Below are positions 1 to 63,462 of a stretch of DNA of 64,000 nucleotides, one piece after another (positions within the stretch are counted from its first letter, which is position 1; every line of letters starts with the position of its first letter). A program made the translations under genes and the position numbers. The DNA comes from a virus: the IMG/VR virus record IMGVR_UViG_3300028653_000014, positions 19,070-83,069 of that record. One strand, 5' to 3'. The notes beneath the pieces are model-generated. The model did not search any database, was not told the origin of the DNA, and saw only the letters and a program-made list of their open reading frames with translations.

Positions 1-996
1 GCCGCCGCTGCCCATCAGTTGGATGTAGTCAACCGCGACCATGCCAAGATCCGGATGCTTCGTCTTCAGGCGCCGCGCCTTCGACCGGAGTTCCGTGACG
101 GTGATCCCGGCTGACTCCTCGACGAACATCGGGGCGTTCGCGATCCGGCCGGACGCGTTCAGGACGCGCTCCCAGTCGTCGCCGTCGAGCCGCATCGGGG
201 TCTGTATGTGCTGCGAGTCGACGGCCGCCTCGGACGACAGGAGCCGTTGCGACACCTCCCACCGGCTCATCTCCAGGGTGAACAGCGCGACCGGGGTCGG
301 CGGGTCGATCCGGAGCGTGGAGTGCGCGAGCATCCCGAGAACCATCGCCGACTTCCCTATCGAGGGGCGAGCCGCGATCACGATCAGATTTCCCGGGTGG
401 AGACCCGAGGTCATCCGGTCGATCTCGGTGTAGCCGGTCGGCACCCCGATCACGGCCTTACCCGCCGCGGCCAACTCCTGCAGTCGCTGGACCGTCTCCG
501 TCATCATCTGGGAGGCGGTCACGAACTCGTGGCGGCGCGAGCGGGCCTGCGACAACTCGAACACCATCCCCTCCGCACGTTCGACCAGGTCGCCGATCTC
601 GCCGGGCCGTTCGTAGCCGAGCCGTGCGATGTCGGACCCGGCACGGATCAGGCCGCGCAGGGTTGCCATCTCGTGGACGATCCGGGCGTAGTGGGCCGCG
701 TTCGACGTGGCCGGGACGATGCCCGCCAACTCGTAGACGCGCGCCTCCCCGCCGACCGCCTCCGTCTTGCCGAGCTTCGCCAACTCGTCAACGACGGTGA
801 TCTGGTCGACCGGGTCGCCACGGCCGTGCATCGCCAACATCACGTCGAACAGGGCACCGTGGCTCTGCCGGTAGAAGTCGACCGGGGTGACGAGTTCGGT
901 GCAGACGCCGAGCGCGGACGGCGACAGCAGCGACGCGCCGAGCACGTGTTCTTCGGCAGCGAGATCCTGAGGTGCGGGCGGGGCCTTCTCAGGCAT
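1..996 (-). CDS. dnaB: Replicative DNA helicase DnaB (runs off the window edge)
   Basis: Manual translation from ATG 996: MPEKAPPAPQDLAAEEHVLGASLL...DFYRQSH...VPATSNAAHYARIV...LIVIAARPSIGKS (Walker A). Confidence 0.95.
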   Translation of the reverse strand, partial: MPEKAPPAPQDLAAEEHVLGASLLSPSALGVCTELVTPVDFYRQSHGALFDVMLAMHGRGDPVDQITVVDELAKLGKTEAVGGEARVYELAGIVPATSNAAHYARIVHEMATLRGLIRAGSDIARLGYERPGEIGDLVERAEGMVFELSQARSRRHEFVTASQMMTETVQRLQELAAAGKAVIGVPTGYTEIDRMTSGLHPGNLIVIAARPSIGKSAMVLGMLAHSTLRIDPPTPVALFTLEMSRWEVSQRLLSSEAAVDSQHIQTPMRLDGDDWERVLNASGRIANAPMFVEESAGITVTELRSKARRLKTKHPDLGMVAVDYIQLMGSGG

Positions 997-29527: not shown

Positions 29528-31273
29528 TTACGAGTGATTCTGGTAGGAGTAGGGACAATCCCCAACAGCGACCGGAAGCGAAACGGCTCCGTTATCGCAA
29601 ACGAATGTCTCGACCGCAAGTGACTCCACACCAACGTAGGCCACATTTTCGAAACTTTCGCCGAAAAGTTGGAAATTGTTAAGCGCATTGAGTACGCTAT
29701 CCCGTACAATTCCCAACTCCAAAACTCCGCCGTCCAAATAGAGGAACGACCCCTCGGGGAAGAGGTACCAGACGACGGTCGGCGGGAACGTCAGGAGCGC
29801 CCCGTTCGCCTGGGTGCCGAACACCTGGCCGCGGCCGTTGGCGCCGTCGATGTAGTACGTCGGCTCGATCCCGAACGAGCGGAGCAGAGCCGTGACCTTC
29901 GCCTCGTCCGTGTCGAATCGCTGGAACTGGCCGCGGATGACGTCGGACACGATCAGGTCGACGGCCCAGTAGGGGATCATCAGCCTGAGGATCGCGCCCG
30001 GGTCCATCCGGTTGCGGTTCCGGAGGCCGTTCGCCGCAGCCAGGATCTGGCTGAACAGCGTGGCCGAGGCGCCCAGCCCGAGCGACCCTGCGGTCACCTG
30101 GGTCGAGAACGCGTCGATCTGGGTCAGGAGGTTCGACTCGGCCAGGCGAGCGTGGGCGGCGAGCACCAGGTTGTTCCACTGCGCGACAAGCTCCGGGAAC
30201 GCGCGCGCCCCGAGGTTGCCGAACTGCAGGCAGTGGTAGATGATGTCGACGTCGGTCTCCTGGAACGGCGGGCACGGGATCGTCTGGCACGACTTCGTGG
30301 CCGACGAGCCGCCCGCGGCGTCCTGCGTCTCGGTGATGAGGCCGACACCCGTCGTGACCGCCGAGAGGGCGGCCGGGCGTGCGTAGCGGAGACCGCCACG
30401 GTCAGCGTTGAACGACGGGAGGGCGCCCATCACGGGCCGGGTCGGCACCGAGATGTACTGCAGGTTGTAGTACGGCGTCACGGGGGCGCAGAGACCGCCG
30501 GACGCGACCAGCGAGTCGGGGGCGCCGTCGAGTTGCATCTTCTTCCGCTTCTCGAACTCGGCGTTGATGATGCTCTTCGACGTGACGGACGCGACGAGAT
30601 TCATGTTCTGCTCGATCGACTGTCCGAGCAGACGCGACTCAGGGTACTGGTCGTGCCAGTCGAACCGGCCGATCGTGAACTTCTCGTTCGTGTCCGGCCC
30701 GGCCTGCCCGAACGCCCGCTGGCGGTCGATCATCGCCTGGGCGAGGTCGAGGTCGGAGGTGAACTGGCTTCCCGGCACCCGGTCGGGGGCACCCGCGGCG
30801 GCCGTCAGCGCGATCGGCTTCTCCGTCGGCTCGTACTCGACGGGGGTGCGGTCGGCGGACGGGCGCGGCAGACGGCCACGCACGACAGGCTTCGCGGCAG
30901 CCGTGACGGCCGCTGCTTCCTCGACCGGCTCGGCAGGCTCCTCCGGCTCCTCCGGCGTCTCAGCCGCGGCAGTCGCGAGGTCAGCGAACGCGGCCTTGTC
31001 CTCGTCGGACAACTCGACCGGCTCGGCGGGCGTCTCAGCCCTGGTCGCTGCGGCGGCCTTCAGAGACTTCACAGTCTCGATGGCGGCCTTCGTCTCGTCC
31101 AGCAGGTTCGCGGTCGTGTACTCCGCGGTGATGAACTGGAGCGGGTTCGACGTGACGTCGCTGATCGCAAGCTCGTACGAGGCGATCAGACTCGCGAGGT
31201 CTTCGTCGGAAAGGGATGCGATGTCGTCTGGGACGGGCGCGAACAGCGGCTCGTCCAGGTTCTCGTTCTCCAT
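29528..31273 (-). CDS. Major capsid protein with N-terminal scaffold-like region
   Basis: SD AAGGAGG; acidic coiled N-terminus; LVASGGLCAP..YY, RGGLRY, C..IPCP, FPEL, LGIVRDS.LN..N. Confidence 0.85.
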   Translation of the reverse strand: MENENLDEPLFAPVPDDIASLSDEDLASLIASYELAISDVTSNPLQFITAEYTTANLLDETKAAIETVKSLKAAAATRAETPAEPVELSDEDKAAFADLATAAAETPEEPEEPAEPVEEAAAVTAAAKPVVRGRLPRPSADRTPVEYEPTEKPIALTAAAGAPDRVPGSQFTSDLDLAQAMIDRQRAFGQAGPDTNEKFTIGRFDWHDQYPESRLLGQSIEQNMNLVASVTSKSIINAEFEKRKKMQLDGAPDSLVASGGLCAPVTPYYNLQYISVPTRPVMGALPSFNADRGGLRYARPAALSAVTTGVGLITETQDAAGGSSATKSCQTIPCPPFQETDVDIIYHCLQFGNLGARAFPELVAQWNNLVLAAHARLAESNLLTQIDAFSTQVTAGSLGLGASATLFSQILAAANGLRNRNRMDPGAILRLMIPYWAVDLIVSDVIRGQFQRFDTDEAKVTALLRSFGIEPTYYIDGANGRGQVFGTQANGALLTFPPTVVWYLFPEGSFLYLDGGVLELGIVRDSVLNALNNFQLFGESFENVAYVGVESLAVETFVCDNGAVSLPVAVGDCPYSYQNHS

Positions 31274-31378
31274 CAGGTGTAGCCTCCTTGAACGCAAGTA
31301 GGGACTTCGGTTTGCGCTCGGCGGCTATGCCTGCCTTGCTACCGCACCCACTGGCTAAGCCGTGGTTACGATGGGTGA

Positions 31379-51701: not shown

Positions 51702-51871
51702 GACTCGATCACCTCTCGGAGCGCCCGTGCCTTCTCCGCCACCGCGTCCGTGATGAGCGCCTCGTCGGCGTACTCGATCTCGACGAGCAGGTCGAGTGCG
51801 GCGGCGGTGAACTCCGTCAGCACGAGCGACGGGCGCAGCCTCACGTACAGCACCGCTTCGCCCGGCACGGG

Positions 51872-54800
51872 CTACTTGCCCGCCGTCAGCAGTCCCTGAA
51901 CGAACTGCGGGAACGAGTCCGGCATCAGTTGCGGCTTCAAGTCGTACAGCGTGCGGGCCGCGTGCTTCTCGATCGTGTCCGCAATCGACGTCTGCACCCC
52001 GTCGTCCGTGATCCCGAACACCCTGAGCGCGTCGAGGATCAACGTGCGGGCGCCGCCGACGAGGGCGGCCTCTGACGGGACGTTGGGGAGGTTCCGCACG
52101 CGCGCACGTCCCAGAGTGGCTGCAACGTCGCGTGCCGGGACGCCCTCTATCAGCGCGAGGGTTTCATCGTCGCGACGTGCGAGCGTCCGTAGGCGGCTTC
52201 CTGCGGCCTCACGAGCACGTAGGAGCGCCAACTGGGCGGCGCCCTGAACCATCACCGTCTGTGCCCGCTGCGCGGACGCCACGACCTCGTTGTCGACCCC
52301 GGCCGGGTCGTCCTTCGGCACAGGCGGCGTCTTCTCGACGTCGGCCGCCGTGACTCCGCCATCGCCTGTAGTGCCACCGTCTGGACCGGGCGAGACGAGC
52401 GTGTCCGAGTCCGGCTCAAGTTCGGAGTTCTGCCTGAGCGACGGGACGCCGTAGACAGCCAGCGACGGGTCGCGCAGCTTGACGCCGAGCCAACGGTTCC
52501 GCTCCTCCTCGGTCGGCGCGTCGTTGTCGCCGAAGTTCGCGACACCGCGCAGCGCCTCGTCACCGATGACGCCACGGTCGTGGAGGTCCTTCGCGTCCTT
52601 CGTGCGGTCCGGATGGTTGATGACCGCGGTCGCGTCGTACGCGATCACGTATTTCCCCCAGTCCGCGATGTTCTGATCCATCAGGTACGGGGACAGGTAG
52701 GCGTCCGTCAAGTCCTGCACGAGCGAATCCGCGACAGGCTGCAGGTGGTACTTCCACGTGATCTCGTCGATGTTCCAGGCGCTGTTGCCGGTGAAGAACG
52801 TCCGCCCGTCCCGCCGCGCAAGCCATGTGCGGTTCACCGTGGTGGGGCACCAGACGACTCCCGAGTAACTGACTATCTCGTCCGTGGCGCCGTCGTCGTT
52901 GAACTGCCGTCCGGCTTCCTGCGCCGCCTTGACAGGCCGTACCGCCAGAGAGCGCAGCGCCCGCACGACAACACCGCCATCGTGTGACGGTTGCCGGGAG
53001 GCGGCGCGGCCCGAGAGGATCACCGCAAGCTCGAATGCGTCGAGCCGGGCCGGGTCCTTCTGCCAGACGTCGAGTAGGCCGCCGCGGTAATGATGGCCGT
53101 CCCCCTGGCAGGAGACGTCGATGAAGAGTTCTAGTTGCGCCCTGCTCAGCGCCGAGATGAACTCCGGGCTGACGCATTTCGACGGCGCGATGTCGAGCAG
53201 GGGCTTCGACGCCTGCTGGTTCAGGTGGAAGACGGTGATGGGGACGCCGTGACTTCCATCGTTCTGCTGAATGGCCTCACGCCATGCCGGGACACCGAGC
53301 ATCCTCGTCTTGCCGACCGATGGTCCGTAGAGACGGGTCAGGCAGCCGCGGATGCGCTCCACCCTGTCGGCGTTCCGGGTGTGGGACTGAGCGATCGACA
53401 GCGTCTTGCCTCGCGCGTGTCCTTCCGTCCAGAACCAGGCGGCAAGCTCTACTAGATCGTCCGGAACGACGGCAAGATTCTCGTCGCCCGCGAACGCACC
53501 CGTGATGATCGAATCGGCAGCGGTCAGGCGCTTCGTTGTCGTCCACTCCCGCGATACGTACGGAACCTTGTCCTTGTGCCGAAGCCGTGTAACCGGCCAG
53601 CGATGGTTCAGCGTCGTGAGCGAACTGTGCGTGCGACTCTCCAGCCGACGCATCGGCTCGTTCGTCACGCCAGCGCGATAGATGTCCAGAACGGGCTGCC
53701 ACTCGGCGAGGCCGGTCTCGTGATTGAGAGTGCGTACGACGTCGCCCGTTTCGAGGTCGTCGTGCGTCACCCATCCTCTGTCCTTCGTCAGAATCTCCGT
53801 CGATTCGTCCGAGCACCAGTGGTTGACGTCGCCCAATCCGAGAAGGACTTCGGGCGGCATGTCGAGCGAGACGGCGAGGCGGCGGATGCACTCGTCGCGC
53901 AGCCCGGTCTCCGGGTACACCTGGGTCGGGTCGATGATCTGGAGATGGAAGACCAAGTCGGAGAGTTTCATCCCTTCAGGGACGCGCACACGGGCGACGA
54001 GCGGTACGACGGCCCCGGCGGTGCCTTCGTTGATGATCGGCTTCGTCATCGCCTCCGTCAGGTCGGCGAGGAACGGGTCCTCCTGCGGGTCCTCGTCCGG
54101 GGCGGCCTCTGACGGGGTGGTGGTGATCCGGTCGTCGATGAACAGGACGCCGGAGCCTGCGAGGCGTGACCGGGCGCGGGCACGGACGGCCTGCGTGAGG
54201 AGCACGTACTCCTCCAGGATGTCCAGGCACGCCATGACGGACGAGTCGGCCAGCGACGACCAGCGCGGATGCCGTTTCCAGATCCGGTAGGCGACCGCCG
54301 TGTCTGCGAGCGGCTCGAAGTCCTTGTCGGGGGCCGGGTAGAACTGGTTCGCGGGAAGCTGCGGCGCCTTGAAGCGGGTGTAGAGGCCCTCGATCAGCCG
54401 CACCTCGTCGGTGGAGAGCATCTCCCACTGTTCCAGCTTCGTCCGCTGGTTGATCGTGACGAGCAGATACGCCTCGCCGACGAGGAACATCAGGCGGCCG
54501 TAGTTCGCCAACAGCCCGGTGCGCCCGGTGCCGCCCGGGTCTTTGATCCGGGCGAGCGCGTCGATGACGACCTCGTTCTTCGTACGGACGACCTCGCCCG
54601 TCTCCTCGTCGATCTCCCCGGCGAACAACTCCAACTGGGCGAGTGCGCGGCTGTAGAACTGGGCGGCGTACTTGAGCGGCCCGACGATATCGTAGTAGCC
54701 CATCGCGCGTACCTGCCACGCCTGGATCAGTCGGCGCAGATAGGTCGCGTCGCCGTGCTGCACCAACTCCCCTGCCGCGGTGAGTGAGCCGGGCTGCTCT

Positions 54801-54916
54801 GCCCGGAGCCGATCCATTTCGGCCCGGACGGCGTTGTGGCGTGCGCTGACCCGATCAGGGGACGCGTCCTTATAGAGAACCGGGGTTGTGTCGCGGCGGC
54901 GACTGAACAGCGCCAT
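51872..54916 (-). CDS. Portal protein with intein
   Basis: WQ..A..YYD.VG, VGEAYL, RIW..HP, SRLAGSG, LDMPPEVLLG...NHW|SAW. Confidence 0.85.
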   Translation of the reverse strand: MALFSRRRDTTPVLYKDASPDRVSARHNAVRAEMDRLRAEQPGSLTAAGELVQHGDATYLRRLIQAWQVRAMGYYDIVGPLKYAAQFYSRALAQLELFAGEIDEETGEVVRTKNEVVIDALARIKDPGGTGRTGLLANYGRLMFLVGEAYLLVTINQRTKLEQWEMLSTDEVRLIEGLYTRFKAPQLPANQFYPAPDKDFEPLADTAVAYRIWKRHPRWSSLADSSVMACLDILEEYVLLTQAVRARARSRLAGSGVLFIDDRITTTPSEAAPDEDPQEDPFLADLTEAMTKPIINEGTAGAVVPLVARVRVPEGMKLSDLVFHLQIIDPTQVYPETGLRDECIRRLAVSLDMPPEVLLGLGDVNHWCSDESTEILTKDRGWVTHDDLETGDVVRTLNHETGLAEWQPVLDIYRAGVTNEPMRRLESRTHSSLTTLNHRWPVTRLRHKDKVPYVSREWTTTKRLTAADSIITGAFAGDENLAVVPDDLVELAAWFWTEGHARGKTLSIAQSHTRNADRVERIRGCLTRLYGPSVGKTRMLGVPAWREAIQQNDGSHGVPITVFHLNQQASKPLLDIAPSKCVSPEFISALSRAQLELFIDVSCQGDGHHYRGGLLDVWQKDPARLDAFELAVILSGRAASRQPSHDGGVVVRALRSLAVRPVKAAQEAGRQFNDDGATDEIVSYSGVVWCPTTVNRTWLARRDGRTFFTGNSAWNIDEITWKYHLQPVADSLVQDLTDAYLSPYLMDQNIADWGKYVIAYDATAVINHPDRTKDAKDLHDRGVIGDEALRGVANFGDNDAPTEEERNRWLGVKLRDPSLAVYGVPSLRQNSELEPDSDTLVSPGPDGGTTGDGGVTAADVEKTPPVPKDDPAGVDNEVVASAQRAQTVMVQGAAQLALLRAREAAGSRLRTLARRDDETLALIEGVPARDVAATLGRARVRNLPNVPSEAALVGGARTLILDALRVFGITDDGVQTSIADTIEKHAARTLYDLKPQLMPDSFPQFVQGLLTAGK
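52784..53815 (-). mobile_element. Intein (344 aa) with LAGLIDADG endonuclease
   Basis: CSDESTEILT..RGW, TLNHRW, AAWFWTEG, SCQGDG, VWCPTT...FFTGN|S. Confidence 0.92.
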
Positions 54917-54925
54917 GCGGGGCTG

Positions 54926-55129
54926 CTAGGGCTTCGGGGGGCCGTTGTGGGCCGACGACGCCTCGGCCGGGCCGTTCACAGGCCGCTGGGGTCCTGACCA
55001 GTAGTAGTCGGGCGTTCCTGGCCCTCCGCCGCGGCGTACCGGCTCGGGCGCTCCGGGACGTACCTGGCGGGCCACTGGCTCACGCCGCACCTGCGGGTTC
55101 TGCTGCGACCCGCCACAGTTGCACGGCAT
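54926..55129 (-). CDS. Small MPCNCGG protein
   Basis: SD GGGAG; directly upstream of the portal gene. Confidence 0.55.
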   Translation of the reverse strand: MPCNCGGSQQNPQVRREPVARQVRPGAPEPVRRGGGPGTPDYYWSGPQRPVNGPAEASSAHNGPPKP

Positions 55130-55165
55130 CTAGAAGCTCTCCCTCATGTCGCCTGCTCCTTCCGG

Positions 55166-55399
55166 CTATGCCGTTGGGGGTTGGTTCTTCAACGCCTGAG
55201 CCTTCGCCCCGGCGGTCACGCCCGTGTGGACTCCGAAGATCGCGATGGCCGCGACCGCGACGGGGGAGATGACGAGCATCGCCTGGGTGCCCGTGACGCT
55301 GCCGTGCCACGTCAAGGCTCCGAGGAGCGCGAGCACCCCGAGGATGACGAGGGTGCCTGCGACGACGAGGATGTTCGGGTTAGCGCCTGTGACGTTCAC
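55166..55399 (-). CDS. Small 2-TM membrane protein (leaderless)
   Basis: GTG 55399 lies 7 nt after TACGAT. Confidence 0.6.
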   Translation of the reverse strand: MNVTGANPNILVVAGTLVILGVLALLGALTWHGSVTGTQAMLVISPVAVAAIAIFGVHTGVTAGAKAQALKNQPPTA

Positions 55400-55432
55400 G
55401 CGGCAAATCGTACTGCGGCGATTCCAGACCCA

Positions 55433-55504
55433 AGACCGCGCCGGGAGTCGAACCCGGTTGTGCGGCTTTGCAGGCCGCCACCTAAGCCGTTCGGTCACGC
55501 GGTC
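55433..55504 (-). tRNA. tRNA-Cys(GCA)
   Basis: Acceptor GACCGCG/CGCGGTC; anticodon arm GCGGC-CTGCAAA-GCCGC; T loop GTTCGAC. Confidence 0.9.
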
Positions 55505-55506
55505 AA

Positions 55507-55589
55507 CGGAAGCTGAAGGAATCGAACCCTCGGGCTTTCGACCCGGCCTGGTTTTCGGGACCAGTTTGCCCCCACGGGCGCCAGCTTCC
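55507..55589 (-). tRNA. tRNA-Ser(CGA), atypical D arm
   Basis: GGAAGCT/AGCTTCC; CTGGT-CCCGAAA-ACCAG; long variable arm; discriminator G. Confidence 0.75.
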
Positions 55590-55591
55590 AG

Positions 55592-55675
55592 CGGCGGGGG
55601 TCGGAATCGAACCGACTCGGGCTATTGACCCTTACGCAGTTAGCGGCTGCGCTCCTGACCGTTCGGGTCCCCGCC
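55592..55675 (-). tRNA. tRNA-Ser(GCT)
   Basis: GGCGGGG/CCCCGCC; CGCAG-CCGCTAA-CTGCG; long variable arm; discriminator G. Confidence 0.8.
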
Positions 55676-55738
55676 GAGGCTACGCGCTACAGCGCGAAGA
55701 TGATGACAGCGGGGTGATACTCGGCCAGGTCATTTCAG

Positions 55739-55809
55739 GAGCGCCCCTGCGAGTTGAACCCAGTTCTCAGCCTTATGAGGGCCGCGTGTTGCCGTTTCAC
55801 TCGGGCGCT
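55739..55809 (-). tRNA. tRNA with CAT anticodon (Met or Ile2), possibly degenerate
   Basis: AGCGCCC/GGGCGCT; CGGCC-CTCATAA-GGCTG; G-G mismatch in the T stem. Confidence 0.6.
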
Positions 55810-56035
55810 GCGCGAGATACTACCGTGAAGTCCACGCTGTCGTTGGTGTCCATCACGATGAAGGCGCGGTCTCTGAGACCTACCCGGACGAGTTCACCTA
55901 CCAGCGCTTCAACGAACTCGGGGATGCTGTCGGGCGACTCGTCCGCGTCATCGGGAAGGGCGCTGTTGACGCGGATGATGAGCCGGTCGTCGGGGCCTAC
56001 CCGGAGCGCTTCCGCGTTGACGATGCGAACCTCGG

Positions 56036-56401
56036 TCACGGGTCGATGAACCTCGACCAGGCGCCGACGACGGTGCTGAGCGCTAACGGGACGGCCGCGT
56101 ACAGCGTCCAGCGCGGCTCGAACCGCCACGCGACATATGCCGCCGTGCTCAGCCACAGGCCGGAGCAGTACGAGCACGCAATCAGGTCTGCGAGCCACTG
56201 CCGCCGGTACGTGACGGTGTTCTGTACCTGCTCATTCGTGACGCCCAGCCGGGCGTTCGTAGACCCGTTGCTTGTGTGCTGCTCCCCGGTCGCCCAGGCG
56301 CGCACACGGATCAGGTACGGCATGTGGTCCCAGCCGATGAGACGAACGAGCCGGAAGACGGCGAGCGTCAAGATGACCGCGATGTACGGATGTGGTGTCA
56401 C
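56036..56401 (-). CDS. DUF1360-like membrane protein
   Basis: LAVFRLVRLI..D...LIACSYCSGLW. Confidence 0.7.
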   Translation of the reverse strand: MTPHPYIAVILTLAVFRLVRLIGWDHMPYLIRVRAWATGEQHTSNGSTNARLGVTNEQVQNTVTYRRQWLADLIACSYCSGLWLSTAAYVAWRFEPRWTLYAAVPLALSTVVGAWSRFIDP

Positions 56402-56748
56402 TCGTCGTCCTCCTGATCGTCAAGCCAAGATTCCGGGAACGTGTACGGGCGCCCCGGGTCGTCGTAGCGGATGCCGCCCCGACCGGTCTTGACCGATGGA
56501 AGCGAATCACGAATCGGCCGCTTCAGCCCGTCGACCATGACTAGGTCGTAGTAAGGGGCGACGGGCGCGCACAGACCGCCGGACGCGATCATCGACCGCG
56601 ACAGCACCGTGTTCTCGACAGGGACAGGAGGCCCAACGTCGTAGTCGATCCACTCGGCGTCGGTCTTGGCTGCCGCTGCGGGCAGCTTGCCGAACGCGAG
56701 CGCGCCAACGACCGCGCCTGCGCGCTTCAGGAACGAGCCTCTGTTCAT
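56398..56748 (-). CDS. Signal-peptide protein containing a major-capsid-like segment
   Basis: MNRGSFLKR + hydrophobic helix; IASGGLCAPVAPYYDL...RP...LPS...RGGIRY. Confidence 0.75.
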   Translation of the reverse strand: MNRGSFLKRAGAVVGALAFGKLPAAAAKTDAEWIDYDVGPPVPVENTVLSRSMIASGGLCAPVAPYYDLVMVDGLKRPIRDSLPSVKTGRGGIRYDDPGRPYTFPESWLDDQEDDE

Positions 56749-57285
56749 AGCGGCGTCTCGTCGAAGACGATCGTGCATCCGTCAGGCAGCAGCAGTCTCT
56801 CGGCCTCGGCGCTGACCTGCTCCGCAACCGCGTGAGCGTGTTCGAGCCACTGCTCACGCTGCAGCCGTGCAAGGTCTCGGGCGGCCCGCTCCCGCTCTTC
56901 CAGAAGGTCGACGAGTTCTCGCTCCTCGTCCGTCAGATCGAGGGCCGTGTAGATGCGCTCCTTGAACTGCTGGCGGAATAGAGCGAAGTCGTTCGTGCCC
57001 GAGTCGCCGATGACTCCGACCTCCACACCGGCCTCCCGCAGTTCGTCCCAGGTCGGCGGCGTGGTCACGCGACGGCAGCCTTGAGATCGTCGAGATCGGC
57101 GCGCTCGAAGACGCGATGCTCCACCCAGGTTGACTTGCACCGCAAGCAGCGCATGTGGAGCCGCGTGAATGACCCTTCCCGGCTGAACTCGAAGTCGCGT
57201 TGCATGATCGTCCCCACGCAATCGCCGACGTCAACTAGATCGACGAAATGAGGCGACTTGTGGGAATCCACGAGGCAGCGGCGCG

Positions 57286-57603
57286 TCACGGCCCCTCCAA
57301 CTGTAGAGGAACCTCGCCCAAAGGGATCAGTTCGCCGCGGGCGCCGAGCATGTGCGACGGCTGATGAGTCCAGAGCCGCCACTCGACGTTGGCTTCCTCA
57401 CGGGCGACCATCAGTTTGTACTCGGCCTCCTGCGGCGTGTTGGCGCGGCCTCCGCGCGCGAAGCGGAACCCGCGGTCGACGACTCCCTGACGGGCCTGTT
57501 GGTTGCGGCCCTCGGACACCTCCAGGTAGAGCCACCAGCGGACGACGTCGCGGCGGTCGTGGAGGCTGTCGCGTTCGTGGCCGAACTCGTACATGTCGGT
57601 CAC
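57286..57603 (-). CDS. Hypothetical protein
   Basis: One of a chain of coupled small ORFs (56745-58981). Confidence 0.55.
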   Translation of the reverse strand: MTDMYEFGHERDSLHDRRDVVRWWLYLEVSEGRNQQARQGVVDRGFRFARGGRANTPQEAEYKLMVAREEANVEWRLWTHQPSHMLGARGELIPLGEVPLQLEGP

Positions 57604-58687
57604 CTGGATGCCTCGACAGTCTCAGTGAGGATGATCGTGACGGACTGGCCGTCGTTCTTGTCGATGAACCCAATCTCCCGGCCGTGCTCGTCCGTCACAC
57701 TCGATTCCAGGCGGTGCCAGTCCGGACACGGCTCCTCGGGCTTCACGCCCAACTTCACGATGATGACGCTCATCGCTTCGCAGGCTTTCCGTGGGTCGGG
57801 CATTCCCACCAGCCGTTGAACTCCATCGGGGCGTAACAGACGGGGCACGGGCGGGGGTCCTGCGGGCGCTTCACGATCGGCTTCGCGGTCATGGTGCCCC
57901 GTGAGCGGTCATCCAGACGAGAACGTCTCTAACGGACGCACCTGCGTCGAGTAGGGATGCGGAGGCTCGCGCGTCGGACTCCTTCACCGCCTGAGGGCAC
58001 GGTGTGTCGTAGTGTGGCGGGGCGCCCGGGTGGTTACCGGCTTTGCCGCACGTCGCGCAGTATTCATATCTCGCGGTCACGGGATTCTCTTCCACCAGAC
58101 CTGCCAGTCACCGAACCTCGCGAGCCGATGCGCGCCGCGCCGTTCACGTTCTGACCAGCGGAGCGGGTACAGGCTGGCCCGTCGCAGCACGAGGTAGCGC
58201 TTCCCGATCACGAGGCCGTGCCAGCCGCGCATGTGGTGCGTCCGGATCACGGCCGTCTTGCCGCCCACCAGATGCAGGCCCGATGCCAAGGGCCGCGGTG
58301 ACGTCGAATCCCGACGAACCCGTCCGCATACGTCGGGAGTGCAGGTTTTATCGCGCGCGGGCTACGGCAGCAGGCCATCAGGAAAGCGCGTCCCTGAACA
58401 GTCTGAACGCGCCCGCCAGAAGCTCGCACACCTGATAGAGCAGATAAGCCGAAACGACGCCGAGGAAGTAAAGCGGGACGGTCCGGCCGATACCCCACAC
58501 CGTGTGGCCGTGCGCGTTGACGCCTTTGCTGCTGAGCCAGCCGAGGATCATCCCGTGACCGCCGTGGACTCCAGCCGCCCACAGCCACGCCAACACGAAC
58601 AGTGACCCAAGGCCGACGACGGCCGGTATCCCGATCGCTCCCAGAAGGAATGCTACGCCGACGGCAATCCACTGCCTATCCGTTACA

Positions 58688-58981
58688 TCACCCACGCACT
58701 GCCTCCTGCTTGATGAGTTCCGTTGACTGAGGTTCCCGCGACGTCGGGTCTGTCGCGCGTTCAAGACGAAGGTGGATCGCGTCGTCGACCCGCATCTGAA
58801 TCGACTCGCGCTCCAGCCGGATCTGGCTGAGCGTCAGTTCCGTCCGTTCGCGTTGGACGCGGCGGAGATTCGTGTTCGGCAACGTCAGTTTCCCGTTGGC
58901 GATCAGGATGGCTCCCGCGACTGTGGCTACCACCATTGACAGGCCGAGGAAGACGCTGAGGACGATCAGAGCCGCGACCAT
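58688..58981 (-). CDS. Membrane-anchored coiled-coil protein (leaderless)
   Basis: TM helix then coil; ATG 7 nt after TAGGCT. Confidence 0.6.
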   Translation of the reverse strand: MVAALIVLSVFLGLSMVVATVAGAILIANGKLTLPNTNLRRVQRERTELTLSQIRLERESIQMRVDDAIHLRLERATDPTSREPQSTELIKQEAVRG

Positions 58982-59006
58982 TGGTAGCAGCCTACCACCC
59001 GCGGGG

Positions 59007-59219
59007 CTATCGCGCCAGTGGTCGTCTCGTCTCGAAACGACGCAGCGCCGACTGCTCCGCTTCGCGCCATTCCCGCTCGAAGCCAGGATGCCCGTCCCGC
59101 TCTCTGAGAGCCTCCCTGCGCGTCACAGACGCCACAGCGCAGGAGAACGTCAGGTTGCCCGACACGGCAAGTTCAGCGACGAACAGGGCGCGCTGGTCGG
59201 CGGTCATCTCGTCGCCCAC
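59007..59219 (-). CDS. Small-terminase-like HTH protein
   Basis: FVAELAVSGNL...A.V.R.....R...PGF..EW.EA. Confidence 0.5.
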   Translation of the reverse strand: MGDEMTADQRALFVAELAVSGNLTFSCAVASVTRREALRERDGHPGFEREWREAEQSALRRFETRRPLAR

Positions 59220-59272
59220 CAGAGGAACAGGACTAGGAACACGATGCCCACCCCGATATTAAAGATGAGCCA

Positions 59273-59290
59273 ACTCACGCGCGCGTTACC
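59273..59290. repeat. 18-bp pseudo-palindrome, copy 14
   Basis: ACTCACGCGCGCGTTACC; contains the stop codon of the GT2 gene. Confidence 0.85.
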
Positions 59291-60108
59291 GCCGGGTCAT
59301 ACACAAGGCCGCGTTCGTCTTCGGAGCCGGGCGCCCGCGGCGGGTTCGGCGCGTGGAAGTAGAGGCGGAACCACTCCGCGGCCCGCTCGTCCAGGTCGGG
59401 TGCGTCCGGGTCACCCCACATCCGCCAATGACCGCCGACGTCTTCCGGCAGATCCGTCGCGGCGTACGCTCGCGCGCCATTCCGCACCTTACGGGCGAAC
59501 TGCTCCGCCGTGCGCCACGAATAGTGGTCGACCCTCAGGCCGCCCGCCGTGAGGTAGCGCTTCGACCCGTCGTAGGAGCAGCCGTGGTTGCCCGCCTCAA
59601 TCACCAGGCCCGGCCAGGTGCGGCACGCGACCTTCGGCAACGCGGACGGTTCAGCGAGCCGCCAGCGGATACGGTCGAACGGCGACGGGCACTCGGCCGC
59701 GGACGGGTCGTCGCCGGACGGGATGTAGTGGTATATACCGGCGGCCACCACCGGCACGTCGGGCGGGATGCTGCGCAGGAACGCCCCGACGGTCCGGCCG
59801 TCTTTTGCGACCCATCGTTCGTCCGCGTCGATCAGGACAGCCCAGTCGTAGCCAAGCTCGCGCGCCTGATCCGCGAGCGTCGTCATCTTCCGTGCCTGGA
59901 AGTACGCCGGGTCGAGATCGGGATAGATGGCGAGCCAGCCTTCGGTCTCCAGAGCCAGGTCGAGCAGGATCTCAGAGGTGCCGTCCGTCGAGAGGTTGTC
60001 GAGCACGAGCAGCCGGTCGATGTCCTGGGTCATCAGATGCCGGATCGTGTGCTCGATCACATCGGCCTCATCACGGACCATCATCAGCCCAGCAGAACTC
60101 AAAGCCAC
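59275..60108 (-). CDS. Glycosyltransferase family 2
   Basis: MMVRDEADVI, DNLSTDGT, IDADE. Confidence 0.85.
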   Translation of the reverse strand: MALSSAGLMMVRDEADVIEHTIRHLMTQDIDRLLVLDNLSTDGTSEILLDLALETEGWLAIYPDLDPAYFQARKMTTLADQARELGYDWAVLIDADERWVAKDGRTVGAFLRSIPPDVPVVAAGIYHYIPSGDDPSAAECPSPFDRIRWRLAEPSALPKVACRTWPGLVIEAGNHGCSYDGSKRYLTAGGLRVDHYSWRTAEQFARKVRNGARAYAATDLPEDVGGHWRMWGDPDAPDLDERAAEWFRLYFHAPNPPRAPGSEDERGLVYDPAVTRA

Positions 60109-60705
60109 CTACACGTCCCGGCGTCGGAACGCCAGCCCCGATCGGCGGTAGTGGTTGAACGGCCGCTCGTTCTTTGACGACAGCGCCCGCGTCATCGCGG
60201 TCAGACCCTCGTCAAACTCGAACCCGTTCGCGGCGAATACGCCTTTCCAGTAGTCGTCTGAGCGGCAGTTGACGTGATGCCAGCCGGGACAGCCCGGCTC
60301 CGCATGGGTGATCGCGGCGAACCGGGCCATCTTGAACGTCGCCATGAAGTTCGGGACGTACTGCTCGTCGACGTGCTCCACGAACTCAGCCGACCAGGCA
60401 AGATCGAACTCCTCCAGGCTCCCAGGGAACGGCCCAACGGTGTAGTCGTGCTGAAGTATCCGCTCGTCTGTCTGCGGTGTTCCCTCGATGCCGAGCACGC
60501 GGCAACCCTTACTCGCGAAGTAGGCCAGCGTCTGCCCGTCGCCACAGCCGATGTCGATCACCGACTTGACCTCCCACGTCTCTACGAGCCAGTCCCACAT
60601 ATCTTCATAGCGCGTATCCGGGTCGCCGCCGGTCAGGTAGCCGCCGAGGTGCCCGGCCGTCTCCATGCGGTGATGCTCTGGTTCGGTCACAGTTCGACCC
60701 ACCAT
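60109..60705 (-). CDS. Class I SAM-dependent methyltransferase
   Basis: VIDIGCGDG, FDL..S.EFVEH. Confidence 0.85.
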   Translation of the reverse strand: MVGRTVTEPEHHRMETAGHLGGYLTGGDPDTRYEDMWDWLVETWEVKSVIDIGCGDGQTLAYFASKGCRVLGIEGTPQTDERILQHDYTVGPFPGSLEEFDLAWSAEFVEHVDEQYVPNFMATFKMARFAAITHAEPGCPGWHHVNCRSDDYWKGVFAANGFEFDEGLTAMTRALSSKNERPFNHYRRSGLAFRRRDV

Positions 60706-61250
60706 ATCGATGTCCCTTCGCCCACATTCACCCTCTCTCCGAAGACTTCATTGACGGCCTGGGCGACGCCGGGGTATCCCGCGTCGGGGCCGGGCAAGTA
60801 GTCGTGCCCGCAGATCAGCCTCCTGGTGAGCGGCAGCCACGCGGCGATGTCCTGCTTGACGGATTCGTACGCATGGTCGGCGTCGATGAATGTCATGTCG
60901 ACGGCGGCGTAGCCGAAGGACAACGCCCGCATGGTGTCGGCGGCGGGGAGCGAGTACGTCTGCAGCGCACGCAGGTTCTCGAAGTGGCCGCACGAGCGCA
61001 TGAACGACCGGTAGCAGTGGCCGCCCTCGTCATCCCACGGGTCGACGCAGTAGACCGGGCCTTTGCAGCCGGTCAGGAGCGCGAACGAGGAGCGGCCGTG
61101 GAGGGAGCCGATCTCGACGACGCTGTCCATCGTGGCGGCGGTGTCGTGGAGCCACCAGCATTCGACGTTCGACATCCAGCCCCAGATGTGGTCGCCGGGG
61201 AACCCGGCGTCCGGTGTCGGCTCCGGTCCCATGATGAGCGGAGTCGTCAT
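60687..61250 (-). CDS. Class I SAM-dependent methyltransferase (Methyltransf_24-like)
   Basis: VVEIGSLHGRS, FIDADHAYE, CGHDY, PGV..AV. Confidence 0.85.
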   Translation of the reverse strand: MTTPLIMGPEPTPDAGFPGDHIWGWMSNVECWWLHDTAATMDSVVEIGSLHGRSSFALLTGCKGPVYCVDPWDDEGGHCYRSFMRSCGHFENLRALQTYSLPAADTMRALSFGYAAVDMTFIDADHAYESVKQDIAAWLPLTRRLICGHDYLPGPDAGYPGVAQAVNEVFGERVNVGEGTSIWWVEL

Positions 61251-62050
61251 CTAACCGGGCCTCTGGGTCGTACTCCGATCTCGTTCGCGCAACGCTTGCA
61301 CAAGTCATCGAAGTGACGGGGTCTTTTCTCACAACGACTGCAGAGCGGTGAGACAGCGCGAGGTTCATCGTCAATCGCCTGGCGCCGTTGATCGCGTTCT
61401 GTCAATCTTCTGCGTCTTGCATCGGCGGCTACATCTTCGCTGACTTTAAGCATCGGGCGGTGGCGATCAATTTCCGCGCTAAGTCGCTCAAACTGGCCGT
61501 CCTCCCACACCTTCGTGCCGAACTCTGATGCCGCGTAGTCGGCGAGAGGCACCAATCTGTCCCATAGGTCAATAATGACCGCTAGCAGCGCGGGTGCTGA
61601 AAGTTCATATCCATCTTCCGGCAGAGAGTTGAACGCGTCTTTTTTGGAATCGAACGCGCGGCAGAGATCGTCGATAGCGCGACACGTCGCCACGTATTCC
61701 GACCTGTCTTTCACCACGCCCCTCCACGCGTTCTCGAAAGACTTCCGCATTTTTCGGGAACCAAAAGTCGTCAGGTCGCTCGCGAAATCGCCGGTGGAGG
61801 CATCTAGCTCGTGAGTAGCGAAAAAGGCTCTTGCTACTTCGTAGTAGATGGAGATTTCGTGATCGGATAACGCTGAGGACGTCGAGAAGTAGGCCACGAA
61901 GTCGTCCTCGTATGCAGCGAAGATCGGGTCGTCTTCCCGGTCCTTGGCTCTGTCTCTGAGAACGTGTCCGTCTCCGATCGCCTGAAAATCGGTTCCCTCG
62001 GTTTCGATGCCGAACACATCTGAGAAGAACCCCGTCTTGCGGAACTTCAT
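61247..62050 (-). CDS. Hypothetical protein, visibly lower GC, C-terminal CxxC..CxxC
   Basis: 267-aa ORF interrupting the transferase cluster. Confidence 0.55.
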   Translation of the reverse strand: MKFRKTGFFSDVFGIETEGTDFQAIGDGHVLRDRAKDREDDPIFAAYEDDFVAYFSTSSALSDHEISIYYEVARAFFATHELDASTGDFASDLTTFGSRKMRKSFENAWRGVVKDRSEYVATCRAIDDLCRAFDSKKDAFNSLPEDGYELSAPALLAVIIDLWDRLVPLADYAASEFGTKVWEDGQFERLSAEIDRHRPMLKVSEDVAADARRRRLTERDQRRQAIDDEPRAVSPLCSRCEKRPRHFDDLCKRCANEIGVRPRGPVR

Positions 62051-62051
62051 C

Positions 62052-62750
62052 TCAGTAGCCCGTCCCGGTTCTGACGCCCGTGTGGTGAATCCACTCCTCG
62101 CCGTTACCCCATACGCCGAAGCGGTAGCCGCGGCCCATCAGGTCGTGGCTGAAGCGGCCCTCGCAGTGGTCTTCGTAGTCGGGCCAGGGGTTGTCGCGCA
62201 TGAACTCTGTGCTCATCAGCGACGGGTTCGTGGTGAAGTACATGCGCTGTTCCAGCCACTGGAGGCTGTAGAGGCCGAGACCGCCGAGCCACGCGTTCGC
62301 GGCATGGGTCGTCACCGGCTGATATTCGTGGCGGTGGAGGGCGTAGAGGCCGCCCGCACGCCGTTCGATCGGGTTGACCGCGTCGCGCATCAGCGACATC
62401 TGCGCCACCTCGGGTTCGGCGCGAAGGACGGTCGCGAGTTCAGCCAGGTTCACCGGGCGCAGGAACTCGAAATCATTTTCCAACCAGAAGACGTGCTCCG
62501 GCCCGTCCTTGGCCGCCTGCTGCCAGAGCGCAGCGGTCGCACCGCAGAAACCGCGCTGCTCGCTCAGGAAGATGCCGCCCCACGACCCGAGCGGCTCAAT
62601 CGGCGGCAGGCGTCCGTCTTCACCGTCCACGACACAGACGAGATCGGTGGGGCGCGGTGTGACCATCGCGGCGAAGCTCTCGATGGTGCGGTCAAGCGTC
62701 GGTGCGTCGCCGTGGGTCAACACAGCCAGCCTGTAGGAGAAGTCGCTCAC
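62052..62750 (-). CDS. Glycosyltransferase (GT-A fold)
   Basis: VCVVDG, GFCGA, FWLENDF, FTTNPSL, HTG. Confidence 0.75.
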   Translation of the reverse strand: MSDFSYRLAVLTHGDAPTLDRTIESFAAMVTPRPTDLVCVVDGEDGRLPPIEPLGSWGGIFLSEQRGFCGATAALWQQAAKDGPEHVFWLENDFEFLRPVNLAELATVLRAEPEVAQMSLMRDAVNPIERRAGGLYALHRHEYQPVTTHAANAWLGGLGLYSLQWLEQRMYFTTNPSLMSTEFMRDNPWPDYEDHCEGRFSHDLMGRGYRFGVWGNGEEWIHHTGVRTGTGY

Positions 62751-62762
62751 GCGGGCGCGACT
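62745..62762. repeat. 18-bp pseudo-palindrome, copy 15 (degenerate)
   Basis: GCTCACGCGGGCGCGACT. Confidence 0.55.
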
Positions 62763-63462
62763 ATAGCCTACTACCGGATGCCGTGCGGGCCAGATGGTCG
62801 GCCCAGATGGCGTTGTACACCTTCATCGGGTCGCCTCCGGCTACGTTGCGGCTGTTAGGCCGGACGTGTGCCCGATACACCGCGTCAGGGACATGCACGA
62901 GATGTGCGCCCGCATCCCAGAGGGCCAGGAACGTCGCGTAGTCCTCGTAGATCGTGAGCGGGGTTCCGTCGCTGGTTGTCTCCTGGAACCCGCCCGCTTC
63001 GAGGAACGCAAGCCGGGGCATGAGTGTGCCGATGACGCACTCCGACGTGCGCGGCCAGCCGCCGATGTTCGGGATGCCCGCGCCCGGCTCGCGTCCGTCA
63101 CCGGCCCAGTAGCGAACCGCGGGCGCGAGGAGCAGGTCGGGGAGCGGGAAGCCCGGATGGTCGATGCCGTCGCCGTGCCAGAGCAGCAGAAGCCGCCGGT
63201 ACATCTCCTCGACGTAGAACGGCTCCAGTTCGTCGTCGGCGTCGAGGAAGCACAGCCATTCGCCTTCCGCCCGGGCAGCGGCCTGGTTGCGCGCCTGCGC
63301 CAACGTGCCGTCCTCCAGATGGTGGACGATCGTCTCGACCGTCCCGTCGAACGGTTCCTTCATCCCCTGCCCGACGGTAGACGGGTACGCGCGTGACCAC
63401 GACAACTCCTCCCAGGCCGGGTCGCCGTAGGTCGCGACCAGGATCGAGCAGAACGTGGTCAC
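62761..63462 (-). CDS. Glycosyltransferase family 2
   Basis: ARNQAA..A.GEWLCFLDADD, GGF, YED. Confidence 0.85.
   Translation of the reverse strand: MTTFCSILVATYGDPAWEELSWSRAYPSTVGQGMKEPFDGTVETIVHHLEDGTLAQARNQAAARAEGEWLCFLDADDELEPFYVEEMYRRLLLLWHGDGIDHPGFPLPDLLLAPAVRYWAGDGREPGAGIPNIGGWPRTSECVIGTLMPRLAFLEAGGFQETTSDGTPLTIYEDYATFLALWDAGAHLVHVPDAVYRAHVRPNSRNVAGGDPMKVYNAIWADHLARTASGSRL

What the first reader, a model, noticed from the sequence alone, without database searches (positions are those of the whole stretch)
56398..56748. Small signal-peptide protein carrying a copy of a major capsid segment
Seen: IASGGLCAPVAPYYDLVMVDGLKRPIRDSLPSVKTGRGGIRYDDP aligns without gaps to the capsid's VASGGLCAPVTPYYNLQYISVPTRPVMGALPSFNADRGGLRYARP (about 30375-30510). 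It is fused behind a Tat-like leader (MNRGSFLKR, with RG in place of RR, then a hydrophobic helix). It has diverged at many positions but keeps the motif residues. Inference: a capsid mimic, acting as a membrane-tethered assembly nucleator, a decoy for capsid-sensing defences, or an inhibitor of competing phage assembly.
Basis: partly seen in the sequence, partly recalled or inferred. Interest (0 to 1): 0.7.

Follow-up and report, generated by a model that had tools for sequence, protein, structure and literature searches.

The report
Export-tagged mini-protein copying capsid arm
An uncultured soil phage carries a small, well-conserved extra gene that joins a bacterial export-type leader to an old copy of a short, highly conserved piece of its own head-shell protein; such genes form a family I could not find described, and what they do is untested.

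Summary
Window 56398-56748 (minus strand) is a real 116-codon gene, coupled by 4-base overlaps to both neighbours. Its residues 52-99 match residues 262-309 of the phage's 589-aa major capsid protein without gaps (25/48 identical, E 3e-15; profile-profile E 1.8e-22). It is not debris. A profile search gave 437 hits; of the 150 listed, 46 are small proteins, most matched from the leader on, and 104 are longer capsid-type proteins matched only in this segment. Among its three closest relatives the leader is 20/21 invariant, the linker 2/33, the capsid-like piece 20/41. The leader is Tat-like: 27/48 members have RR, and 5 of 10 tested pass the curated Tat-signal cut-off. This member has R-G and does not pass. 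The copied piece is the N-arm, first P-domain strand and E-loop base of the HK97 fold. Five of 48 relatives also carry a second capsid piece, in permuted order. The gene is accessory: 0 of 23 related phage records searched whole carry a leader-bearing member. Function is untested; I favour a competitive mimic or decoy of this capsid segment, taken to the membrane. No paper was found. Earlier AI notes of this scan report the same design in other phages.

The parts
56398..56748 (-). Small gene, 116 codons plus stop (P0001). Three conserved modules separated by a free linker.
   Evidence: ORF and overlaps; codon-position GC; homologs P0002-P0004 at 57-76% identity; family of small proteins.
56668..56748 (-). 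Leader, aa 1-27: MNRGSFLKR, an 11-residue uncharged core, then K-L-P and AAAA. Tat-like with R-G in place of R-R.
   Evidence: 20 of 21 first residues invariant among the 4 closest members. TIGR01409 gives 11.2 bits, below the 16.7 cut-off. Relatives: RR in 27/48; 5 of 10 RR members tested reach the cut-off. AF2 helix 3-19, pLDDT about 88.
56452..56595 (-). Capsid-like segment, aa 52-99 of the 116-aa protein. It keeps the capsid family's motif residues (GGLCAP, P.Y, RP.RD.LP, RGGI.Y).
   Evidence: BLASTP E 3e-15; hhalign E 1.8e-22; HMMER capsid profile iE 1.2e-23; same consensus in 48 small proteins and 36 capsids.
56401..56451 (-). C-terminal tail, aa 100-116: RPYTFPESWL followed by an acidic run. 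A third conserved module of unknown role.
   Evidence: 12 of 21 positions (aa 96-116) invariant among the 4 closest members. Similar tails in P0006, P0008, P0016, P0106. AF2 short helix 106-112. No consistent match to any one capsid site.
29528..31297 (-). Major capsid protein gene, 589 aa: a long N-terminal scaffold-like part and an HK97-fold body from about aa 260.
   Evidence: phrog_777 E 1.9e-72. AF2 model pLDDT 79. Foldseek gives 323 PDB matches at E<=0.001, the listed ones capsids and encapsulins. VIA-align: model 271..566 on HK97 1ohg_A 117..383, Z 13.5, rmsd 4.2, 250 aligned.
30371..30514 (-). The copied capsid segment, aa 262-309: N-arm (unstructured in the monomer model), short helix 288-292, strand 295-297, strand 303-306.
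   Evidence: Domain names are inferred from the order of elements and the offset to HK97 numbering.
56745..57221 (-). Upstream 158-aa ORF of unknown function; its stop overlaps the small gene's start (ATGA).
   Evidence: No significant family hit in Pfam or PHROGs (best PHROGs E 0.35) and none in PADLOC.
56036..56401 (-). Downstream DUF1360 membrane protein (121 aa); its GTG overlaps the small gene's stop (GTGA).
   Evidence: PF07098 E 2.8e-12, phrog_781 E 3e-19. A homolog also sits near the small gene in L057 (51% over 57 aa, E 6.5e-15).
51872..54916 (-). Portal gene (1014 aa, with an insert), downstream in the same direction. In L057 the portal gene directly follows the small gene.
   Evidence: phrog_776 E 1.5e-96. 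L057 portal is 34% identical over 350 aa, E 1e-53.

Best explanation
The gene encodes a selected, non-essential (accessory) mini-protein. It has no fold of its own and is built from three modules. Module one is an almost invariant Tat-type N-terminal leader helix. Module two is an old copy of the most conserved stretch of the HK97-fold capsid protein: N-arm, first P-domain strand and base of the E-loop. Module three is a short aromatic/acidic tail. Shown: the gene is real and conserved, the copy is homologous to the capsid segment and keeps its motif residues, the leader is Tat-like at family level, and the gene is sporadic among related phages. Inferred: a free peptide can only keep the capsid's motif residues if it is read by the same partner as the capsid segment. 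So it acts as a competitive mimic of that segment while the leader takes it, and perhaps what it binds, to the membrane or the Tat translocase. My preferred version (about 30%) is a decoy or sink for a host factor that recognises newly made capsid protein. It would be made together with the head genes. This is analogous to the decoy fusions proposed for Bodo saltans virus. The other versions are listed as rivals.
For: Real gene: 4-base overlaps with both neighbours and a coding GC pattern. Homology to the capsid. Family: 437 profile hits at E<=0.001; of the 150 listed, 46 are proteins of 49-125 aa, most matched from profile position 1-3, and 104 are longer proteins matched only at about 45-98. 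Modular conservation among the 4 closest members: leader 20/21, linker 2/33, capsid piece 20/41, tail 12/21 invariant. Small proteins and capsids share one consensus in the segment. All 48 members hit the capsid profile, and 46/48 hit NF033847. Tat likeness: RR in 27/48, KR or RK in 5/48; TIGR01409 hits 15/48 at E<=1; 5 of 10 RR members tested reach the curated cut-off. No fold: AF2 pTM 0.22 with only helix 3-19 and two short helices; Atlas model pLDDT 0.35. Accessory: 0 of 23 related records carry a leader-bearing member. Same neighbourhood (DUF1360 gene, portal gene) in a relative whose proteins are only 34-51% identical, which suggests co-expression with head genes. Published precedent for 'fragment of an essential viral protein fused to a handle = decoy': passage read in PMC5871332, section 18. 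Capsid proteins are known triggers of bacterial immunity: PMC9712102, search listing and abstract start only.
Against: No binding partner is known. No expression data exist. This member lacks the twin arginine and fails the curated Tat cut-off. A signal-peptidase-type A-x-A site follows the leader here but not in the three closest relatives, so export is unproven. A decoy that binds an immune sensor might trigger it rather than block it. No PADLOC family is hit by the gene or its 6 neighbours tested. Similarity that survives only in the capsid's most conserved motifs is partly a detection bias. dN/dS against the own capsid segment is only moderately low (pN 0.30, pS 0.48 over 48 codons). No DNA of homologs could be fetched for a proper test.
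Confidence: 0.55

Rival explanations
1. Assembly modulator. The peptide binds capsid protein itself, taking the place of a neighbour's N-arm and strand on the P-domain or E-loop. It would then slow, cap or localise head assembly. This could tune the phage's own assembly at the membrane, or poison the assembly of co-infecting relatives or satellites that use the same capsid family.
For: The copied part is the N-arm and first P-domain strand. By established HK97 structures (recalled) these make contacts between subunits. 5 of 48 relatives add the C-terminal long-strand piece of the capsid, so together they would resemble a P-domain sheet. The gene sits next to head genes. The own capsid has M290-G291 where 38/41 and 37/41 capsids have R and D, while the mini-protein keeps R-D. 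That pattern would fit an own capsid that escapes its own inhibitor. The genome is rich in homing nucleases, a sign of frequent co-infection (earlier notes).
Against: An essential nucleator role is excluded by the sporadic distribution. The M-G/R-D contrast is a single genome. A Tat-type leader is not needed for a cytoplasmic inhibitor.
Confidence: 0.25
2. True Tat (or Sec) cargo. The leader is cleaved and the capsid-like peptide works outside the cytoplasm, for example as an envelope-located exclusion factor or a released signal.
For: Family-level Tat signature. Small unfolded hydrophilic cargo. A basic residue follows the short hydrophobic core. Membrane-protein genes lie next door.
Against: No known extracytoplasmic partner for a capsid N-arm. 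R-G in this clade. The cleavage motif is not conserved among the 4 closest members. Signal peptides are usually poorly conserved in sequence, whereas this leader is 20/21 invariant.
Confidence: 0.12
3. Prohead-directed protein or protease substrate. The invariant motif lies at the boundary between the scaffold-like part and the mature capsid body, so it may be the maturation-protease site. The mini-protein would then be a substrate or competitor of the prohead protease, or a minor virion component near the portal.
For: The motif lies in a flexible stretch (pLDDT below 50 at 260-276) just after helix 241-256 of the model. By the VIA-align offset it lies within a few residues of the position of the HK97 maturation cut (the cut site at residues 103/104 is recalled). 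The gene lies directly upstream of the portal gene in L057.
Against: The copy extends about 35 residues beyond any plausible cleavage motif. Relatives add a C-terminal capsid piece that is no protease site. The leader resembles a Tat signal, not any part of this capsid or portal.
Confidence: 0.06
4. Recombination debris: a leftover capsid gene fragment that happens to be in an open frame.
For: The genome holds homing nucleases beside the capsid gene that move gene pieces (earlier notes). One related phage (G006) has leaderless capsid-piece ORFs.
Against: A conserved family with intact frames, an invariant leader, modular conservation, coupled starts and stops and conserved neighbours. The nucleotide identity to the capsid segment is only 64.6%, so the copy is old.
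Confidence: 0.02

Closest known systems
Twin-arginine (Tat) signal peptides and small Tat substrates (NCBIfam TIGR01409, Pfam PF10518)
   Same: N-terminal basic motif of the type x-R-R-x-F-L-K, a short moderately hydrophobic core, then a basic residue. 27/48 family members have RR, and 5 of 10 tested reach the curated score.
   Different: This member has R-G and scores 11.2 bits against a cut-off of 16.7. The leader is nearly invariant, unlike ordinary signal peptides. The cargo is a viral capsid fragment. Export is untested.
N-arm, P-domain strand and E-loop base of HK97-fold major capsid proteins (NF033847 MCP_Sipho, phrog_777; fold of HK97 gp5, PDB 1ohg)
   Same: Homologous sequence over about 48-55 residues with the same motif residues.
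   Different: Only a fragment. There is no spine helix and no A-domain, and it cannot form the fold. It scores 35.9 bits against a cut-off of 75.
Bodo saltans virus ankyrin-repeat proteins carrying fragments of essential viral genes (Deeg et al. 2018, PMC5871332; passage in section 18 read)
   Same: Accessory viral genes that fuse a 'handle' to a fragment of an essential viral protein. The authors propose decoys that mimic targets of host defence.
   Different: That is a eukaryotic giant virus, the handle is an ankyrin repeat and not an export leader, and the decoy role there is also only a proposal.
Capsid-sensing bacterial immunity: CapRel (PMC9712102, listing and abstract start seen) and the Gol peptide of T4 gp23 with Lit (recalled, no call)
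   Same: They show that short or defined parts of major capsid proteins are read by host defence. This is the premise of the decoy reading.
   Different: No such sensor is known for this capsid family or host, and no phage-encoded capsid-fragment decoy is described there as far as I saw.
T4 internal proteins with an N-terminal capsid-targeting sequence removed by the prohead protease (recalled, no call)
   Same: A small phage protein with a removable N-terminal address and a protease-site-like motif.
   Different: The leader here looks like a Tat signal, and no evidence places the protein in proheads.

Membership tests
Tat signal peptide (TIGR01409 / PF10518) | Consecutive twin arginines in the S/T-R-R-x-F-L-K motif | tested here: not met
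   This member reads N-R-G-S-F-L-K. 27/48 relatives have RR and 5/48 have KR or RK.
Tat signal peptide (TIGR01409 / PF10518) | Score at or above the curated model cut-off | tested here: not met
   TIGR01409 gives 11.2 bits against 16.7, E 0.38; no Pfam hit. Relatives P0039, P0049, P0017, P0019 and P0128 reach 16.7-21.0 bits, 5 of 10 tested.
Tat signal peptide (TIGR01409 / PF10518) | Short, moderately hydrophobic h-region followed by a polar c-region, often with a basic residue and A-x-A | tested here: inconclusive
   An 11-residue uncharged core (mean Kyte-Doolittle 1.9), then K-L-P-A-A-A-A-K. The A-x-A is absent in P0002-P0004. No SignalP or TatP was available.
Tat signal peptide (TIGR01409 / PF10518) | Tat-dependent translocation | not testable with these tools
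   Needs fractionation in wild type against a tat mutant.
HK97-fold major capsid protein (NF033847, phrog_777) | Full HK97 fold (spine helix, A-domain, P-domain) and full-length profile match | tested here: not met
   Only aa 51-96 match profile positions 233-276 of 549, at 35.9 bits against a cut-off of 75. The AF2 model has no fold, pTM 0.22.
HK97-fold major capsid protein (NF033847, phrog_777) | Homology of the N-arm and first-strand segment | tested here: met
Undescribed family 'export-type leader + piece(s) of the phage's own virion proteins' (this scan's notes; no paper found) | Small phage protein with a conserved Tat-type leader at the N-terminus and a diverged copy of a conserved virion-protein segment behind it | tested here: met
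   Five of 48 relatives carry two capsid pieces in permuted order.
Core head-assembly factor (scaffold, nucleator) | Present in all phages that use this capsid family | tested here: not met
   0 of 23 related records searched whole carry it. 9 of them are IMG/VR records at least 90% complete, and 3 are named Gordonia phage records described as complete genomes.

The most novel reading that the evidence does not exclude
Leader-tagged mini-proteins made of conserved pieces of virion proteins are a general, undescribed phage strategy. The piece captures whatever reads that conserved epitope, be it a host immune sensor or a rival phage's or satellite's subunit. The nearly invariant Tat-type leader then removes the captured partner from the cytoplasm or pins it at the Tat translocase, in the manner of hitch-hiker export. 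This actinophage member would be the capsid N-arm version of that system.
Probability: 0.15. Interest if true: 0.9.

Novelty: categorically new. Interest (0 to 1): 0.66.

Why it matters
If the reading holds, phages keep short copies of the most conserved parts of their own shell protein as separate, export-tagged genes. That would be a new class of molecular mimic in phage-host or phage-phage conflict, or a new kind of assembly control. It would also point to which capsid segment is 'read' by a partner. The family is large, unannotated and known only from metagenomes here, so one experiment on one member would annotate many genes. It also gives a directly testable case: a 116-aa protein with three separable modules.

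Tried and rejected
Complex prediction of the capsid body (aa 250-589, 41-row alignment) with the leaderless mini-protein (aa 28-116, 48-row alignment) gave no verdict: score 0.00, and the controls were not run. It says nothing for or against binding.

Expression: no RNA holder was listed among the 24 runs found. The holders are rhizosphere and soil metagenomes.

Laying contigs of 4 DNA runs on 55900-57300 showed no variant inside the small gene, so no population pN/pS could be made. The listed differences lie at 56102 and at 56893-57029, outside the gene.

The contigs of P0002-P0004, P0006 (14.5 kb) and P0108 (72 kb) could not be read, and no dN/dS between homologs was possible.

The search for related loci with A1 found nothing in viral or metagenome contigs. 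With A3 and A5 in IMG/VR it found capsid genes only, apart from the leaderless piece of G006. In genome contigs it found one capsid gene in a MAG contig. The second metagenome scan gave one small member, L057.

Named phages: megablast found no match. tblastn with P0001 and with P0007 hit only capsid genes, in 13 and 58 records.

PDB by sequence: nothing for the capsid or its profile.

Leader-only search (aa 1-40) found only the same four proteins, so I did not see this exact leader on other cargo.

The segment tree of 84 rows on 51 columns is unresolved. It needs 8 changes of label, but one origin is not excluded. The window's protein sits in a supported clade of 8 small proteins and not next to its own capsid.

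The idea that the C-terminal tail is a third capsid piece was rejected as unsupported. Best matches scatter over three capsid sites, all non-significant, and hhalign and HMMER gave no second hit for this member.

No sigma-70-like promoter and no minus-strand terminator were found in 51500-59500.

The Atlas feature hits (0.88 and below) are leads only.

Literature: six searches listed no paper on a Tat-type leader fused to a capsid fragment in phages. I judged this from titles and abstract starts only. Supplementary files were not consulted.

Full report
WHAT IS THERE. The window is bases 19070-83069 of an 83,069-base IMG/VR virus record (CheckV completeness 86%). Its GC content is 65%, and nearly all genes lie on the minus strand. 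The finding's ORF exists at 56398..56778 (-), 126 aa. The start that is used is almost certainly the ATG at 56748, giving 116 aa that begin MNRGSFLKR. All three close homologs start there. In the relative on locus L057 the equivalent GTG is the first start codon after the preceding stop. The ATG overlaps the stop of the upstream 158-aa ORF (ATGA), and the stop overlaps the GTG of the downstream DUF1360 gene (GTGA). GC at codon positions 1/2/3 is 0.68/0.50/0.80, like the capsid gene at 0.65/0.46/0.87.

THE MATCH TO THE CAPSID. The 589-aa ORF 29528..31297 (-) is the major capsid protein. It hits phrog_777 at E 1.9e-72. Its AF2 model has mean pLDDT 79. Foldseek finds 323 PDB matches at E<=0.001, the listed ones capsids and encapsulins. 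VIA-align places model 271..566 on HK97 1ohg_A 117..383 (Z 13.5, rmsd 4.2, 250 aligned). BLASTP of the small protein against it gives 25/48 identities with no gap, E 3e-15. The pair is the only copy of a virion-protein piece in another gene that the all-against-all comparison of 716 ORFs showed inside the window; one weaker case lies outside it (see the passing notes). Profile against profile gives probability 99.5% and E 1.8e-22 over 52 columns. At DNA level the two segments are 64.6% identical, 50% at third positions, with pS 0.48 and pN 0.30 over 48 codons. The copy is therefore old.

WHICH PART OF THE CAPSID. In the model, residues 260-276 are unstructured (pLDDT below 50) and follow helix 241-256. 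Then come a short helix 288-292, strands 295-297 and 303-306, the 30-residue spine helix 368-397, and later two long strands 518-532 and 542-554. With the VIA-align offset (model 271 = HK97 117), the copied segment 262-309 corresponds to about HK97 108-155. By my recollection of HK97 domain boundaries this is the N-arm, the first P-domain strand and the base of the E-loop, beginning a few residues after the HK97 maturation cut. This mapping is an inference, not a residue-level alignment.

IT IS A FAMILY, NOT DEBRIS. A word-based search found three small homologs at 57-76% identity. In their alignment the leader is invariant at 20 of 21 positions, the linker (22-54) at 2 of 33, the capsid-like piece (55-95) at 20 of 41, and the tail (96-116) at 12 of 21. 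This modular pattern is what selection on a protein gives. An exhaustive profile search gave 437 hits at E<=0.001. Of the 150 listed, 46 are proteins of 49-125 aa, most matching from profile position 1-3. The other 104 are longer proteins of 203-690 aa that match only at about positions 45-98. Six shorter capsid-like hits of 339-431 aa that I inspected have no such leader. I aligned 48 small members: 44 of the 45 fetched, leaving out the 49-aa P0106, plus P0001-P0004. R3, C60, P62, P65 and Y67 are invariant in that alignment. In the shared segment the small proteins and 36 capsids have the same consensus: GGLCAP, P.Y, P.RD, LP, F.A.R, GGI. Five capsids were dropped from that comparison because my motif pattern missed them. 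All 48 hit a capsid profile locally, and 46/48 hit NF033847 at E<=1. All ten members looked up come from metagenomes (JGI/IMG, ENA, Logan, MetaClust), none from NCBI, and none carries a meaningful name.

MOSAIC MEMBERS. Five of the 48 carry a second, separate match to capsid profile positions about 484-532, the long C-terminal strands. These are P0011, P0029, P0095 and P0108 (iE 2e-11 to 4e-9) and P0016 (6.5e-4). The second piece lies before the N-arm piece, so the order is permuted relative to the capsid. Two more members, P0068 and P0053, match weakly. One related IMG/VR phage (G006, locus L055) has two adjacent leaderless small ORFs, one with the N-arm motif (iE 3.2e-6) and one with the C-terminal piece (iE 6e-19). 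The window's member shows only the N-arm piece.

THE LEADER. Among the 48, 27 have RR, 5 have KR or RK, and 16 (including this one) have a single R. The uncharged core is typically 11-12 residues and is followed by a basic residue and L-P. TIGR01409 matches 15/48 and Pfam TAT_signal 7/48 at E<=1. Of 10 RR members scanned singly, 5 reach the curated cut-off of 16.7 bits. The window's member scores 11.2 bits. In the segment tree it belongs to a supported clade of 8 small proteins. Of the other seven, P0002-P0004 share the R-G leader and the remaining four all have RR, so R-G looks derived. AF2 with the 48-row alignment gives helix 3-19, two short helices (78-82, 106-112) and no globular fold (pTM 0.22). 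The Atlas model has pLDDT 0.35. Only this ORF in the genome has such a leader, apart from one probably spurious regex hit. A search with residues 1-40 found only the same four proteins.

CONTEXT. In transcription order on the minus strand the genes run as follows:
- glycosyl- and methyltransferase genes (59275-63462);
- small ORFs, then the 158-aa ORF;
- the small gene;
- the DUF1360 membrane protein;
- tRNA-Met, tRNA-Ser and tRNA-Cys (55433-55809);
- a small two-helix membrane ORF and a 67-aa ORF;
- the portal gene (51872-54916), with the minor head/protease fusion and the capsid gene further on.
On L057, a 2.7-kb JGI contig, the 97-aa member P0007 lies between a 62-aa ORF (GTGA overlap) and the portal gene, which starts at the next base. 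A DUF1360 homolog lies upstream. These proteins are only 34-51% identical to the window's. The neighbourhood is thus conserved across distant relatives.

DISTRIBUTION. I searched whole records with the 48-member profile: 3 named Gordonia phages and 20 IMG/VR records that carry this capsid family. All 23 gave the capsid hit and none gave a leader-bearing small member. Nine of the IMG/VR records are at least 90% complete. The gene is therefore accessory.

ONE ODD DETAIL. The window's capsid has M290-G291 where 38 of 41 capsids have R and 37 of 41 have D. Its mini-protein keeps R-D (RPIRDSLP). It is one genome only, so this is a lead.

INTERPRETATION. The copy keeps the capsid's motif residues although it cannot form the capsid fold. 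The simplest reading is that it is recognised by the same partner as the capsid segment, so it is a competitive mimic. The nearly invariant leader then acts as an address to the membrane or the Tat machinery. I rank the versions of this reading as follows:
- decoy or sink for a host factor that reads new capsid protein, about 0.3;
- modulator or poison of capsid assembly, 0.25;
- true exported cargo with an outside role, 0.12;
- protease substrate or prohead component, 0.06;
- debris, 0.02.
None of these was tested functionally. The decoy idea has a published parallel only as a proposal, in Bodo saltans virus (PMC5871332, section 18, passage read).

KNOWN OR NEW. Six literature searches listed nothing on this design. 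PADLOC, Pfam and PHROGs give the gene no functional name. Earlier AI notes of this scan describe leader-plus-virion-piece genes in at least twelve other findings on other genomes, including permuted capsid pieces and two small genes upstream of a portal gene. These are leads, not support. What I tested here agrees with them.

Noticed in passing
window 55433-55809 (-): Three tRNA genes (Cys-gca 55433-55504, Ser-cga 55506-55590, Met-cat 55738-55809) lie between the DUF1360 gene and the portal gene. The 110-aa ORF 55166..55498 overlaps tRNA-Cys at its 5' end, so its true start is probably further downstream.
   Followed up: partly
window 30425-30433 region of the capsid gene (aa 289-291): The capsid reads RPVMGALP where 38/41 and 37/41 family capsids have R and D. 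The closest capsid, P0043, also deviates (Q-A). The mini-protein keeps R-D. This may be co-variation between capsid and mimic, but it rests on one genome only.
   Followed up: partly
L055 1205-1656 (-) (IMG/VR record G006): Two adjacent leaderless small ORFs of 78 and 72 aa each carry one conserved capsid piece, the N-arm motif and the C-terminal strands.
   Followed up: partly
G000:C1:2428-2826 (-), outside the window: A 132-aa ORF resembles two stretches (aa 421-491, 34% over 71 aa, and aa 792-814) of the 871-aa minor-head/protease fusion protein. It has no leader. It may be another small gene made of virion-protein pieces.
   Followed up: partly
window 59275-63462 (-): A block of three or four glycosyltransferase-like and two methyltransferase-like genes lies upstream of the head module.
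   Followed up: no
window 51872-54916 (-): The portal protein (1014 aa) aligns to the L057 portal in two blocks, aa 43-373 and 714-775. About 340 residues between them look like an insert, probably an intein.
   Followed up: no
window 56401-56451 (-): The C-terminal motif TFPE(S/A)WL plus an acidic run is conserved in the closest members and in P0006, P0008, P0016 and P0106. Its origin and partner are unknown.
   Followed up: partly
window 54926-55129 (-) and L057 890-1078 (+): A small Cys/Gly-rich ORF (C-x-C-G-G near the N-terminus) lies next to the portal gene in both phages. The similarity is weak (E 0.58).
   Followed up: no
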